A stretch of 64,000 bases of DNA from Candidatus Pacearchaeota archaeon (GTDB lineage Archaea; Nanobdellota; Nanobdellia; UBA10117; JAFCGA01), in NCBI GenBank assembly GCA_017608345.1, contig JAFCGA010000002.1, positions 79,023-143,022 of the forward strand. The letters run 5' to 3'. Below are positions 6,982-8,729 of this stretch, in pieces. The notes below the pieces were generated by a model. That model saw nothing but the letters and a program-made list of their open reading frames with translations, was not told the origin of the DNA and did not search any database. A program made the translations under genes and the position numbers. Position 1 is the first letter of the stretch. Each line of letters starts with the position of its first letter.

Positions 6982-7653
6982 AACCTTCTTTGAGTATTAA
7001 TCAGGATACTTGCAAGCAAGTATCCTGATTTTAAAAGGAGGTGATCCATCTGCAGGTTCCCCTACAGATACCTTGTGTTGACTTCGCCCGCCTCGCTGAA
7101 CCAGGATTCGACTTAACCAAGAAGTTGAGCCTCATCCCAACCCAACTCGGTTGGCGTGACAGGCAGTGTGTGCAAGGGCCAGGGACACATTCACCGCACG
7201 ATGCTAACGCACGATTACTAGGGATTTCGTTTTCACGAGGGTGAGTTGCAACCCTCGATTCGAAAAGATTGAATTTAAGGGATTGGCTTCTCCTTTCGGA
7301 GTTGCAGCCCGTTGTTTCAACCATTGCTTGCCGCGTGTAGCCCAGAGGATTCGAGGCATACTGACCTACCGTAGCCTACACCTTCCTCTCCCTTTCGAGA
7401 GCAGTCCCTTCAGTGTGCTTATTCTCAATGAGAATAGTGGCAACTGAAAGCGTAGGTCTCGCTCGTTGTCTGACTTAACAGAACACCTCACGGCACGAGC
7501 TGACGGCGGCCATGCACCATCTCTCAGCGCGTCGAGTGAGCCATTCAGGCTGACCTTCATTCTGCTGTCGCTTCTGGTAAGGTTCCGGGCGTATAATCCA
7601 ATTGAACCGCAGCACCCACCCCTTGTGGTAGCCCCCCGCCAATTCCTTTAAGT

Positions 7654-7698
7654 ATACTGTAGCTACATTTCTCTAATATTTGTAAGAAAATATAGCAA
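7654..7698 (-). other. 16S insertion 1 (45 nt, putative intron) splitting GGCTGAA | ACTTAAAGGAATTGG
   Basis: The conserved block is contiguous in ordinary archaeal 16S but interrupted here. Boundary is +/-2 nt. Confidence 0.7.
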
Positions 7699-7817
7699 TT
7701 CAGCCTTGCGACCGTACTCCCCAGGTGGCCTGCTTAACGACTTCTCTCCGACACTGCATGCTCACGAAGAACATGCAGCACCTAGCAGGCAGCGTTTACG
7801 GCTAGGACTACGAGGGT

Positions 7818-7882
7818 TATTAGGGCTCTGGAAAATAGTTTTCTTTTTCCAGGGTTTTTCTTTTTAAAAAAAGAAAAAGCCT
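7818..7882 (-). other. 16S insertion 2 (65 nt, putative intron) splitting GGATTAGAT | ACCCTCGTAGTCC
   Basis: The interrupted block is the 785-806 'universal primer' region. The insert folds into two hairpins: TTTTTCTTTTT/AAAAAGAAAAA and CTGGAAAA/TTTTCCAG. Confidence 0.75.
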
Positions 7883-7980
7883 ATCTAATCCTCTTTGATC
7901 CCCTAGCTTTCATCCCTGACCGTCAGACCCGTTCTAGTTAGACGCCTTCGCCGCTGGCGGTCCTCTGGGGATTAAAACAA

Positions 7981-8071
7981 TGTAACTGCACTTTTTCGCT
8001 GCTTTGCAGCAAGTAAAGTAGTTTCTTTTGGGCTACCTTACACCTTTTCTTTCCTAAAGAAAAGGGGCAGT
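7981..8071 (-). other. 16S insertion 3 (about 91 nt, putative intron) splitting GAGCGGTAAAA | TTGTTTTAATCCCCAGAGGACC
   Basis: It interrupts the conserved GGTAAAATCCTGTAATCC-type block and carries a module shared with the tRNA-Ala insertion. Confidence 0.7.
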
Positions 8072-8729
8072 TTTTACCGCTCCCCCCAGAATACCTCTAA
8101 CTCCTCCCGGTCTCAAGCTAAGCAGTATTTTCAGCACGCCTGACAGTTGAGCTGCCAGATTTCACTAAAGACTTACTTAGCCGGCTACGGATGCTTTAGA
8201 CCCAATAAACGTGACCACCACTAAGGGCGCCGGGATTACCGCGGCGGCTGGCACCGGTCTTGCCCACCCTTTATTCCTGAAGCGTTTTGGACTCCAGAAA
8301 AGCAGACGCAAAAAGCGCCTGCACGTAGGATTCCCCCATCACGCTTGCGCGCATTGTGGAGTATTCAGAACTGCTGCACCCCGTAGGGCTGGGAGCCTTA
8401 TCTCAGTCTCCCTCTCAGGGCTAGGACTCTCATCCCCCTTACAGATCTTAGGTTTGGTGAGCCGTTACCTCACCAACAGCCTAATCTGCCGCCAACTCAT
8501 CCTATGGCGCCGAAGCTTTGGATAAAAGCGCATTCCAGCCTCTTTTATCTATCGGGAATTATCTTCAGTTTCCCGAAGTTATGCCCGACCATAGGGTAGA
8601 TTATTGACGTGTTACTGAGCCTTTCGCCATGATTTCTCATAGACTTGCATGTCTCATGGATCCTACTAGCAGTGGTCTCCCGCAGGATAAACGGGAATTG
8701 TGATCGCATTAAAATAGAATTGGCTATTA

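What the first reader, a model, noticed from the sequence alone, without database searches (positions are those of the whole stretch)
7036..8698. 16S rRNA gene interrupted three times inside universally conserved blocks
Reading the minus strand, three blocks that are contiguous in ordinary archaeal 16S are split. GGAGTACGGTCGCAAGGCTGAA | 45 nt | ACTTAAAGGAATTGGCGGGGGG (7654-7698). GGGGATCAAAGAGGATTAGAT | 65 nt | ACCCTCGTAGTCC (7818-7882). GGGGGGAGCGGTAAAA | about 91 nt | TTGTTTTAATCCCCAGAGGACCGCC (7981-8071). Removing them takes the gene from 1663 nt to about 1.46 kb. None is long enough to encode a homing endonuclease. Two insertions fall exactly in the 785-806 and 907-926 'universal primer' regions, so this lineage would be under-detected by amplicon surveys. 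Small rRNA introns are established for Thermoproteales. Here they sit in what looks like a DPANN-type genome and share sequence with tRNA insertions (see the next findings).
Basis: partly seen in the sequence, partly recalled or inferred. Interest (0 to 1): 0.65.

Follow-up and report, generated by a model that had tools for sequence, protein, structure and literature searches.

The report
Three spliced mini-introns in archaeal 16S
The 16S rRNA gene of this uncultured DPANN-like archaeon carries three short protein-free introns of the archaeal bulge-helix-bulge type inside universally conserved loops. This is a known kind of element at partly uncatalogued positions, and it blocks a standard survey primer and is related to introns in the neighbouring tRNA genes.

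Summary
Infernal places a full-length archaeal 16S at 7036-8698 (-) with exactly three insertions. They follow E. coli positions 696, 793 and 908, and removing them leaves a 1461-nt gene.

At the boundaries that restore the consensus, each insertion forms a bulge-helix-bulge (BHB) or relaxed HBh' splice motif. Shuffled introns match this in 2, 2 and 67 of 20,000 trials.

A metagenome scan that did not constrain the intron found 62 archaeal 16S genes with a 41-69 nt insertion after 793. In 54 unique introns the splice helices are 94% paired with heavy covariation. Sites 696 and 908 are occupied in 15 and 14 of 55 such genes.

The window also holds a 33-nt BHB intron in the 23S A loop and seven introns in its four tRNA genes. 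Two tRNA introns are paralogues of the 16S introns.

Verdict: these are archaeal BHB introns, most likely cut by the tRNA splicing endonuclease. They are new members of a known kind. Splicing itself is inferred, not shown.

The parts
7036..8698 (-). 16S rRNA gene (1663 nt; 1461 nt after removal of the three introns)
   Evidence: Rfam RF01959, model 1-1478, 1322.8 bits; alignment to E. coli rrsH
8072..8698 (-). 16S exon 1 (627 nt), ends ...GCG GUAA AA
7980..8071 (-). Intron I1, 92 nt, after E. coli 696 (690 loop of h23). It forms an HBh' motif. H is GUAA (8074-8077) paired with UUAC (7982-7985). h' is CUGC (8067-8070) paired with GCAG (7986-7989). The strict-register exon helix h is absent. The body folds into three hairpins.
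   Evidence: cmscan shows 93 against 1; BHB scan; fold; shuffles 2/20000; 15 of 55 metagenome 16S genes carry an insertion at this site, of which 12 unique introns give H 12/12, 12/12, 12/12, 10/12 paired
7883..7979 (-). 16S exon 2 (97 nt)
7818..7882 (-). Intron I2, 65 nt, after E. coli 793 (790 loop of h24). It forms an HBh' motif. H is UUAG (7885-7888) paired with CUAA (7820-7823). h' is 6 bp (GGCUUU/AGAGCC). The exon helix GAGG/CCUC follows one A.C mismatch. I2 belongs to the conserved intron core family.
   Evidence: cmscan shows 66 against 1; 54 unique introns at the same site in metagenomes; CM R1, built from other organisms' introns, hits 7832-7883 at 17.3 bits, E=0.018
7699..7817 (-). 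16S exon 3 (119 nt)
7654..7698 (-). Intron I3, 45 nt, after E. coli 908. It forms an hBHBh' motif with a weak h'. h is AAG/CUU. H is GCUG (7701-7704) paired with CAGU (7656-7659). The body is a single hairpin.
   Evidence: 45-nt insert at model 854/855; 12 unique introns at 908 (window included) with H 12/12 at all four pairs and exon/intron covariation; 908 is a catalogued archaeal locus (PMC4496867)
7036..7653 (-). 16S exon 4 (618 nt), ends GAUCACCUCC
6662..6846 (-). tRNA-Ala(UGC) in the 16S-23S spacer, with a 111-nt intron (6676-6786) at 59/60 in the T loop. The motif is hBH: H is UUCA/UGAA and h is 5 bp. The first 45 nt of the intron are a paralogue of I1.
   Evidence: the spliced sequence gives a clean 74-nt tRNA-Ala with G3:U70
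3943..3975 (-). 33-nt intron in the 23S rRNA gene, after E. coli 2556 (A loop, h92). The motif is a strict hBHBh': CGG / GUGU UC|A CCG ... CGG ACAU AC|A CCG.
   Evidence: Infernal shows 34 against 1 at LSU model 2650/2651; the loop is uninterrupted in the 23S of L026 and L067

Best explanation
The three segments are archaeal bulge-helix-bulge (BHB) introns without any coding capacity.

Proposed mechanism: the 16S-tRNA(Ala)-23S operon is transcribed as one precursor. At each intron the last six exon nucleotides and the last six intron nucleotides form a 4-bp helix flanked by two bulges. The intron ends (h') and, where present, the exon flanks (h) add the outer helices. The tRNA splicing endonuclease (EndA) cuts after the second nucleotide of each bulge. 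RtcB-type ligase then joins the exons and circularises the intron. This restores the 690 loop, the 790 loop and the 908 region.

Two of the three motifs are relaxed (HBh'). The tRNA introns in the same window sit at non-canonical positions (D loop, 53/54, 59/60). The organism should therefore have an EndA with broad substrate specificity.

Shown here: the insertions, their exact positions, the splice motifs, their conservation and covariation in other archaea, and their kinship with tRNA introns.

Inferred: cleavage, ligation and the enzymes involved.
For: 1. Removal at the proposed sites restores the archaeal consensus and the E. coli register at 696, 793 and 908.
2. With boundaries fixed by the consensus, H is 4/4 paired in all three. 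h' is 4, 6 and 2 bp and h is 0, 0 and 3 bp. Shuffled introns reach this in 2, 2 and 67 of 20000 trials. MFE folds reproduce the H and h' helices for I2 and I3.
3. A metagenome scan that fixed only exon sequence returned 62 archaeal 16S genes with a 41-69 nt insertion after U793. All 20 that were tested are SSU_rRNA_archaea.
4. In 54 unique introns the unconstrained 3' hexamer is CUAANN, CUAGNN or CUGANN. H pairs are 54, 54, 54 and 50 of 54. h' positions 1-4 are paired in 54, 53, 49 and 53 of 54, with 4-6 pair types each.
5. The formal count gives 94.3% of cells paired against 71.3% in shuffles, 160 double changes against 48, and a covariation score of 0.613 against at most 0.164 for slid partners.
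6. Sites 696 and 908 carry canonical hBHBh' introns in 15 and 14 of 55 of those genes. They are therefore optional elements, not core rRNA.
7. The same window has a strict BHB intron in the 23S A loop and seven BHB introns in four tRNA genes. In-silico splicing of these yields clean tRNAs.
8. No group I or II intron or other Rfam family matches the window beyond rRNA, tRNA and RNase P.
9. BHB and relaxed BHB introns, and EndA types that cut them in DPANN, are documented (PMC5829648; PMC3239211). Small hairpin BHB introns in 16S, including locus 908, are documented in Thermoproteales (PMC4496867).
Against: - No RNA data exist, so excision and ligation are not shown.
- No EndA or RtcB gene was found among the window ORFs scanned with Pfam. 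The rest of the genome is not available.
- I1 lacks the exon helix h in the strict register, and I3 has a 4x2 internal loop instead of a clean 3-nt bulge in its MFE fold. These substrates need a tolerant enzyme.
- A de novo BHB scan of the rRNAs finds as many motifs as in shuffled sequence. The motif is only informative together with the independently fixed boundaries.
Confidence: 0.9

Rival explanations
1. Lineage-specific expansion segments that stay in the mature 16S rRNA.
For: Small-genome symbionts have unusual rRNAs. The segments fold into stable hairpins. No RNA data exclude retention.
Against: They sit in the 690 loop, the 790 loop and at 908. These are universally conserved functional sites at the subunit interface (established ribosome knowledge), not variable surface helices. 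The conserved loop sequences are split, not extended. The junctions carry covarying BHB helices that would serve no purpose in an expansion segment. Sites 696 and 908 are empty in about three quarters of the related genes.
Confidence: 0.03
2. Intervening sequences that are excised but not religated, leaving a fragmented 16S rRNA. This would resemble bacterial IVS processing, or EndA cleavage without ligation.
For: Excision signals are present and ligation is only inferred. Fragmented rRNAs exist in other lineages (own knowledge).
Against: The breaks would fall inside the 690 and 790 hairpin loops and at 908, destroying conserved continuous elements. The same BHB chemistry in the tRNA genes of this window must end in ligation for the tRNAs to function. 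The 2',3'-cyclic phosphate and 5'-OH ends left by EndA are the normal RtcB substrate (PMC5829648).
Confidence: 0.04
3. Assembly artefact, chimera or decaying pseudogene.
For: The sequence comes from a metagenome assembly, and 16S genes are prone to misassembly.
Against: The gene matches the model end to end within an intact 16S-tRNA-23S operon on a long contig (contig of 150,576 bases). All exons are conserved. Sixty-two independent contigs from many samples have insertions at exactly the same phosphodiester bond. The only artefact-like hit was one bacterial duplication (L060).
Confidence: 0.01
4. Self-splicing (group I or II) or otherwise autocatalytic introns.
For: Group I introns do occur in DPANN rRNA genes (PMC6125680).
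Against: At 45-92 nt they are far below the size of any group I or II ribozyme. No Rfam intron family hits the window at E<=1.
Confidence: 0.01

Closest known systems
BHB introns in 16S rRNA genes of Thermoproteales, Desulfurococcales and Aigarchaeota (Jay & Inskeep 2015, PMC4496867)
   Same: Same kind of element. Introns sit in conserved 16S regions and are bounded by BHB motifs. A class of small (<50 nt) hairpin introns without an ORF is included. Locus 908 is shared. The same consequence for 'universal' primers applies.
   Different: The host is a mesophile-like, DPANN-like archaeon, not a crenarchaeal thermophile. Loci 696 and 793 are not among the 13 catalogued loci (374, 548, 722, 781, 803, 901, 908, 919, 978, 1093, 1205, 1213, 1391). 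None of the three has a homing endonuclease or a remnant of one. Two belong to a sequence and structure family shared with tRNA introns.
Non-canonical tRNA introns and 'intron transposition' in Thermoproteales (Fujishima et al. 2010, as reviewed in PMC4090602); relaxed hBH introns at 59/60 in ARMAN-2 cut by epsilon2 EndA (PMC3239211)
   Same: Near-identical intron sequences occur at different positions of different genes in one genome. Relaxed HBh' and hBH motifs occur at D-loop, 53/54 and 59/60 positions, and they need a broad-specificity endonuclease.
   Different: Here the related copies link tRNA genes with the 16S rRNA gene (I1 with the tRNA-Ala intron, I2 with the tRNA-Asn intron). The described cases are tRNA to tRNA.
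Insertions in rRNA genes of CPR bacteria and group I introns in DPANN rRNA genes (PMC11270868; PMC6125680)
   Same: Ultra-small uncultured lineages with multiply interrupted rRNA genes that escape amplicon surveys. BHB introns are noted alongside group I introns in DPANN rRNA genes.
   Different: Those insertions are mostly hundreds of nucleotides long, ribozyme-like and often encode LAGLIDADG enzymes. The ones here are 33-92 nt, protein-free and depend on a host endonuclease.
rRNA expansion segments and bacterial intervening sequences
   Same: Extra sequence within an rRNA gene that forms hairpins.
   Different: Those lie in variable helices and either stay in the rRNA or are removed by RNase III without ligation. 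Here the sites are invariant functional loops and the junctions carry BHB motifs.

Membership tests
Archaeal BHB (bulge-helix-bulge) intron in an rRNA gene | Interrupts a structural RNA gene so that precise removal restores the conserved sequence and structure | tested here: met
   Infernal alignment shows insertions of 93/1, 66/1 and 45 nt. The spliced gene aligns to E. coli without a gap at 696/697, 793/794 and 908/909.
Archaeal BHB (bulge-helix-bulge) intron in an rRNA gene | Two ~3-nt bulges separated by a 4-bp helix at the exon-intron boundaries (hBHBh'), or a relaxed form (HBh' or hBH), with splice sites in the bulges (definition: PMC5829648) | tested here: met
   H is 4/4 paired in all three. 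I3 is hBHBh' (h=3, h'=2). I1 and I2 are HBh' (h'=4 and 6).
Archaeal BHB (bulge-helix-bulge) intron in an rRNA gene | Cleaved by the tRNA splicing endonuclease; exons joined and intron circularised by RtcB | not testable with these tools
   No transcript data. No EndA or RtcB domain in the window ORFs scanned.
Archaeal BHB (bulge-helix-bulge) intron in an rRNA gene | No self-splicing ribozyme core | tested here: met
   The lengths are 45-92 nt. No group I or II family matches in Rfam scans at the gathering threshold or at E<=1.
Mobile rRNA intron with homing endonuclease | Encodes a LAGLIDADG or other homing endonuclease | tested here: not met
   The longest intron is 92 nt, too short for any such ORF.
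rRNA expansion segment | Located in a variable region, extending an existing helix, and present in all close relatives | tested here: not met
   The sites are the invariant 690 and 790 loops and position 908. Sites 696 and 908 are empty in 40 and 41 of 55 related genes.
Conserved mini-intron core family defined here (5' NNN-CCC-UUUU-[hairpin]-AAAA-GCG-N'N'N'-ACGGAAA) | Match to covariance model R1, built from 21 introns of other organisms at 10 different 16S sites | tested here: inconclusive
   I2 scores 17.3 bits, E=0.018. The tRNA-Leu intron scores 26.2 bits, E=1e-4. The tRNA-Asn T-loop intron scores 17.7 bits, E=0.014. For I1, only the inner hairpin appears among hits with E>5. I3 has no hit. 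I1 shows the same architecture by eye, and I3 is a plain hairpin.

The most novel reading that the evidence does not exclude
The 16S introns may be copies of a proliferating family of structured, protein-free BHB mini-introns, rather than isolated relics. This family would move between tRNA, 16S and 23S genes within genomes and be spread across deep archaeal (probably DPANN) lineages.

The family has a conserved 5' hairpin and an invariant ACGGAAA-type motif that are not needed for the BHB itself. These could be the handle for the still unknown mechanism of BHB-intron transposition, or for a protein partner.

Evidence so far:
- The same core occurs at 10 or more different 16S sites in about 16 organisms, and in a 23S gene and spacer or tRNA regions.
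- The core hairpin covaries: 96% of cells paired, with 22 double changes against 6.4 in shuffles.
- Intron pairs from different sites in the same organism are similar (score >=20) about 8 times more often than pairs from different sites in different organisms (4.3% against 0.54%).
- I1 and the tRNA-Ala intron are 89% identical over 45 nt.
Probability: 0.45. Interest if true: 0.7.

Novelty: new member of a known kind. Interest (0 to 1): 0.5.

Why it matters
**Survey bias.** The gene cannot be primed by 806R-type primers. There are 4-6 mismatches at the primer's 3' end on the gene, against 0-1 on the spliced sequence. The 62 metagenome contigs with the same 793 intron show that a whole swath of archaea shares this blind spot in V4 surveys.

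**Annotation.** In this window, ARAGORN and Rfam missed two of four tRNA genes and mis-set the end of a third, because of these introns. A 33-nt intron in the 23S A loop went unnoticed by composition checks. The small tRNA sets reported for such genomes are therefore probably partly an artefact of intron load.

**Intron biology.** BHB introns are usually discussed as tRNA introns plus a few endonuclease-bearing crenarchaeal rRNA introns. Here one genome has at least 11 of them in 64 kb. They share sequence between tRNA and rRNA hosts, and they have homologues at many rRNA sites in distant archaea. This gives a concrete data set for asking how protein-free BHB introns spread, which is an open question.

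Tried and rejected
- **Genome-contig scan.** I scanned with the lineage-specific exon string GGGGATCAAAGAGGATTAGAT.
- **Exact look-up of the window's ArgRS.** It is not on record. Its closest homologue (53% identity) lies on contigs without an rRNA operon, so gene-neighbourhood transfer to relatives failed.
- **G+C island scan of the operon.** It flagged I2 and I3 but missed I1 and the 23S intron, so it is not a reliable detector.
- **De novo BHB scan of both rRNAs.** It gave 30 and 10 candidates, against 21-31 and 10-17 in shuffles. The motif alone is non-specific.
- **Gap-tolerant alignment of the 23S to E. coli and to L026.** Most flagged gaps were noise in variable regions. Only 3943-3975 had a BHB and was confirmed by Infernal.
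- **Processing stems around 16S and 23S.** Long stems exist, but the fold shows no canonical 3-4-3 BHB in them.
- **RNase P RNA.** The 65-nt poorly aligned region shows no BHB or family motif, so I do not call it an intron.
- **Pfam scan of 48 ORFs for EndA or RtcB.** None was found.
- **Viral-contig scan with the core motif.** There was one hit, next to a duplicated tRNA 3' end and antisense to the tRNA. It remains unexplained.
- **Literature.** I found no description of loci 696 or 793, or of tRNA-rRNA intron sharing in DPANN, but only open-access papers could be searched. Castelle et al. 2015 was not available.
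Full report
**1. What is in the sequence**

Infernal/Rfam finds an archaeal rRNA operon on the minus strand. The 16S gene lies at 7036-8698 (model 1-1478, 1322.8 bits). A tRNA lies in the spacer, and the 23S gene lies at 3609-6543.

The 16S alignment has exactly three large insertions:
- 93 nt where the model has 1, at model position ~637;
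- 66 nt where the model has 1, at ~736;
- 45 nt between model positions 854 and 855.

I aligned the spliced gene to E. coli rrsH, fetched as L070. The insertions follow E. coli positions 696 (hairpin loop of h23, the '690 loop'), 793 (the '790 loop' of h24) and 908.

The boundaries that restore the consensus are:
- I2 = 7818-7882, 65 nt;
- I3 = 7654-7698, 45 nt.

The spliced gene is 1461 nt. The introns are A+T-rich, with 41, 29 and 24% G+C against 50% for the gene.

**2. Splice motifs in the window**

I took the register of the archaeal BHB motif from canonical 37/38 tRNA introns. On each strand the order is outer helix, 4-nt strand of the central helix H, then a 3-nt bulge cut after its second nucleotide. 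This register rests on my own knowledge. The motif definition is in PMC5829648.

In that register the last six exon nucleotides and the last six intron nucleotides must supply H. I did not choose the boundaries for this. The consensus fixes them. Even so, all three insertions have H paired 4/4:
- I1: GUAA/UUAC, with h' CUGC/GCAG.
- I2: UUAG/CUAA, with a 6-bp h'. The exon helix GAGG/CCUC follows one A.C mismatch.
- I3: GCUG/CAGU, with h AAG/CUU and a short h'.

I1 and I2 are therefore HBh' motifs, and I3 is a weak hBHBh' motif. Shuffling each intron in place reproduces H=4 and outer helices of at least the observed length in 2, 2 and 67 of 20000 trials. Minimum-free-energy folds of I2 and I3 with short flanks recover the H and h' helices. 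I1 folds into three hairpins closed by h'.

One caution applies. A de novo scan for strict BHB motifs anywhere in the two rRNAs finds as many hits as in shuffled sequence. The evidence lies in the coincidence of motif and independently fixed boundary, not in the motif alone.

**3. Comparative evidence**

The window's own genome is not in the searchable collections. Its proteins have only distant relatives: the best ArgRS match is 53% identical and the best SMC match is 70%. Named hits are DPANN, Nanoarchaeota, Woesearchaeota, Altiarchaeota and Aenigmatarchaeota at 41-46%.

I therefore spent the single metagenome scan on a pattern that fixes only universal exon sequence around site 793 and leaves a 40-70 nt gap free. 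It returned 63 contigs. One is a bacterial duplication artefact. The other 62 carry an insertion at exactly the same bond. All 20 that I passed through Rfam are archaeal SSU rRNA.

None is close to the window. Exon identity is at most 80%, so the set spans deep diversity.

In the 54 distinct introns (window included), the unconstrained 3' hexamer is CUAANN, CUAGNN or CUGANN. The pairing counts are as follows:

| Element | Pairs formed (of 54) |
|---|---|
| H helix, pairs 1-4 | 54, 54, 54, 50 |
| h' helix, positions 1-4 | 54, 53, 49, 53, with 4-6 pair types each |

Shuffles pair only 22-34 of 54 at the h' positions.

The formal count on the junction alignment A2 gives the following:

| Measure | Observed | Control |
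|---|---|---|
| Cells paired | 94.3% | 71.3% in shuffles (0/500 reach the observed value) |
| Cells changed on both sides | 160 | 48 in shuffles |
| Covariation score | 0.613 | at most 0.164 for partners slid by 1-3 columns |

An intron-aware alignment of the same contigs shows that sites 696 and 908 are also recurrent. Fifteen and 14 of the 55 genes that cover them have an insertion there. These insertions have canonical hBHBh' motifs. At 696, H is GUAA/UUAC. At 908, H is GCUG/CAGY with exon/intron co-variation G-U, G-C and A-U. In both cases h is 3 bp.

The sites are thus optionally occupied. This fits introns and does not fit core rRNA structure. Many of these genes are far more interrupted than the window's. 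The median is 4 insertions of 15 nt or more, and the maximum is 13 in L046.

**4. The rest of the window tells the same story**

*tRNA-Ala.* The spacer tRNA-Ala is not the 94-nt gene ARAGORN reports. Its true 3' exon lies 111 nt further on. The intron sits at 59/60 in the T loop with an hBH motif (H is UUCA/UGAA, h is 5 bp). Splicing restores a 74-nt tRNA with the G3:U70 pair.

*Shared sequence.* The first 45 nt of that intron are 88.9% identical to the start of I1 (E=4e-9 within the window).

*tRNA-Leu.* tRNA-Leu(UAG) at 10499-10641 has a 59-nt D-loop intron.

*Two missed tRNA genes.* A covariance model built only from other organisms' introns (see section 5) led me to an 800-nt gap with no long ORF at about 17.8-18.2 kb. 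It holds two tRNA genes that both ARAGORN and Rfam miss:
- tRNA-Asn(GUU), with introns at 37/38 (14 nt) and 59/60 (141 nt);
- tRNA-Ile(UAU), with three introns (D loop, 37/38 and 53/54).

After in-silico splicing, ARAGORN calls all four tRNAs cleanly.

*23S intron.* The 23S gene has a 33-nt intron at 3943-3975, after E. coli 2556 in the A loop of helix 92. It has a strict hBHBh' motif. Infernal shows 34 nt against 1 at that loop. Two other archaeal 23S genes in the fetched loci have the loop uninterrupted.

In total the window has at least 11 BHB introns in 64 kb. I found no EndA or RtcB among the 48 ORFs scanned with Pfam, so the enzymes remain inferred.

**5. A shared intron core**

Many of the small introns collected from the metagenome 16S genes share a core: 5' NNN-CCC-UUUU-[variable hairpin]-AAAA-GCG-N'N'N'-ACGGAAA. 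This holds whatever their insertion site.

Aligned (A1: 21 introns, 10 different 16S sites, about 16 organisms), the core forms one long hairpin with a C.C mismatch. In this hairpin 96% of cells pair. Twenty-two cells change on both sides, against 6.4 in shuffles (0/500 reach the observed value). All slid controls are much lower.

Model R1, built from this alignment, finds these hits in the window:

| Hit | Bits | E-value |
|---|---|---|
| tRNA-Leu intron | 26.2 | 1e-4 |
| tRNA-Asn T-loop intron | 17.7 | 0.014 |
| I2 | 17.3 | 0.018 |
| Intergenic element, 46543-46607 | 13.4 | 0.16 (weak) |

In the fetched loci R1 also hits outside 16S genes, for example inside the 23S of L026.

By inspection, I1 and the tRNA-Ala intron show the same architecture. 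I3 is a plain hairpin intron.

Across 200 small introns, pairs from the same organism at different sites reach a local alignment score of 20 or more in 4.3% of cases. Pairs from different organisms at different sites do so in 0.54% of cases, and pairs at the same site in different organisms in 4.0%. This suggests both site-specific inheritance and spread within genomes.

**6. Mechanism and rivals**

The best explanation is ordinary archaeal BHB splicing of the pre-rRNA. EndA would cut in the two bulges, and RtcB would join the exons and circularise the intron. The enzyme would need to tolerate relaxed motifs, as described for DPANN and TACK lineages (PMC3239211; PMC5829648).

I consider four rivals and judge each unlikely:
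- *Retention as expansion segments.* The 690 loop, the 790 loop and position 908 are invariant functional sites. The covarying splice helices would have no role. The sites are empty in most related genes.
- *Excision without ligation.* This cannot be excluded without RNA data, but it would break conserved loops. The same chemistry must end in ligation for the tRNAs to function.
- *Assembly artefact.* Sixty-two independent contigs share the insertion at the same bond.
- *Self-splicing.* Size and the Rfam scans rule it out.

**7. Relation to what is known**

BHB introns in archaeal 16S genes are well described for Thermoproteales and their neighbours. These include small hairpin introns without ORFs, and locus 908 (PMC4496867). 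That catalogue lists 13 loci, and 696 and 793 are not among them.

DPANN 16S introns are mentioned in passing as a reason for primer failure (PMC7906910). BHB introns are shown next to group I introns in DPANN rRNA genes (PMC6125680). Similar intron sequences at different positions of different tRNA genes led to the idea of 'intron transposition' in Thermoproteales, with an unknown mechanism (PMC4090602).

In the open-access library I found no description of loci 696 or 793, of the 23S 2556 site, or of intron families shared between tRNA and rRNA genes in DPANN. That search is incomplete.

I therefore file the finding as a new member of a known kind. The family hypothesis is the more novel reading.

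**8. Primers**

| Primer | Mismatches, spliced sequence | Mismatches, gene |
|---|---|---|
| 806R | 0 | 4 |
| Arch806R | 1 | 6 |
| 926R | 0 | 1 |

For 806R and Arch806R the extra mismatches lie at the primer's 3' end. For 926R the single mismatch is next to the 3' end. Several archaeal primers (A21F, 349F, 915R, 958R, 1492R) mismatch at 3-5 positions whether or not the introns are present.

It is weaker for the 907-926 site. The divergence of the lineage adds to the effect.

Noticed in passing
window 3943-3975 (-): The 23S rRNA gene also has an intron. It is 33 nt, lies after E. coli 2556 in the A loop (helix 92), and has a strict hBHBh' motif. Infernal shows 34 nt against 1 there. The 23S genes in L026 and L067 have the loop uninterrupted. 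The rest of the 23S was not checked column by column.
   Followed up: partly
window 6662-6846 (-): ARAGORN gives the spacer tRNA-Ala(UGC) a wrong 3' end (6754). The real gene has a 111-nt T-loop intron (6676-6786, position 59/60, hBH motif). Its first 45 nt are 89% identical to 16S intron I1.
   Followed up: yes
window 17806-18214 (-): Two tRNA genes are missed by both ARAGORN and Rfam. tRNA-Asn(GUU) spans 18214-17985 with introns 18175-18162 and 18139-17999. tRNA-Ile(UAU) spans 17981-17806 with three introns: 17966-17935, 17907-17877 and 17860-17826. Spliced in silico, both are called cleanly.
   Followed up: yes
window 10499-10641 (-): tRNA-Leu(UAG) has a 59-nt intron in the D loop (10561-10619; H is GGUC/GAUU, h' is 6 bp). 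It is the best window match to the conserved intron core model R1 (26.2 bits).
   Followed up: yes
loci L007-L069 (for example L059, L037, L069, L055, L021); alignment A1, model R1: A conserved mini-intron core, NNN-CCC-UUUU-[hairpin]-AAAA-GCG-N'N'N'-ACGGAAA, recurs at 10 or more different 16S sites in about 16 organisms, and in a 23S gene (L026 1851-1898). The 5' triplet covaries with the internal triplet, so the 5' strand of the splice helix h' has two alternative partners. The role of the invariant ACGGAAA is unknown.
   Followed up: partly
window 46543-46607 (-): An intergenic sequence, CCCCUUUCC...CAAAGCGGAGGCGGAAAA, resembles the intron core (R1 13.4 bits, E=0.16), but no host RNA gene is recognisable around it. 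It may be a solo or degenerate copy, or chance.
   Followed up: partly
L046 560-3576; L036; L021; L007 (metagenome 16S genes): Some archaeal 16S genes are interrupted 10-13 times at recurrent sites (~263, 375, 523, 696, 720/727, 777, 793, 863, 908, 919, 1079, 1101, 1362, 1496). Their gene lengths reach 3 kb.
   Followed up: partly
L027, L033, L054, L064 (insertion near E. coli 1512 of the 16S): The 116-157 nt insertions at this site contain RUGAUGA...CUGA...UGAUGA box patterns. They look like intron-encoded C/D box sRNAs.
   Followed up: no
window 985-1310 (-): The RNase P RNA scores below Rfam's gathering threshold (69.7 against 84 bits). It is 326 nt against a 288-position model and has a 65-nt poorly aligned stretch (1162-1226). 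No BHB or core motif was seen there.
   Followed up: partly
L071 686-785 (IMG/VR contig): The intron core motif lies between two copies of a 21-nt tRNA 3' end, antisense to the annotated tRNA, on a contig classed as viral. This is unexplained.
   Followed up: partly
window 8699-8790 with 6940-7035, and 6544-6640 with 3520-3608: Long processing stems flank the 16S and 23S genes. The predicted duplexes show no canonical 3-4-3 BHB.
   Followed up: partly
homologues of window 48244-51672 (+) (SMC): Several SMC homologues of about 1670 aa in related archaea carry intein and LAGLIDADG domains (PF14890, PF14528). The window's SMC (1142 aa) does not.
   Followed up: no
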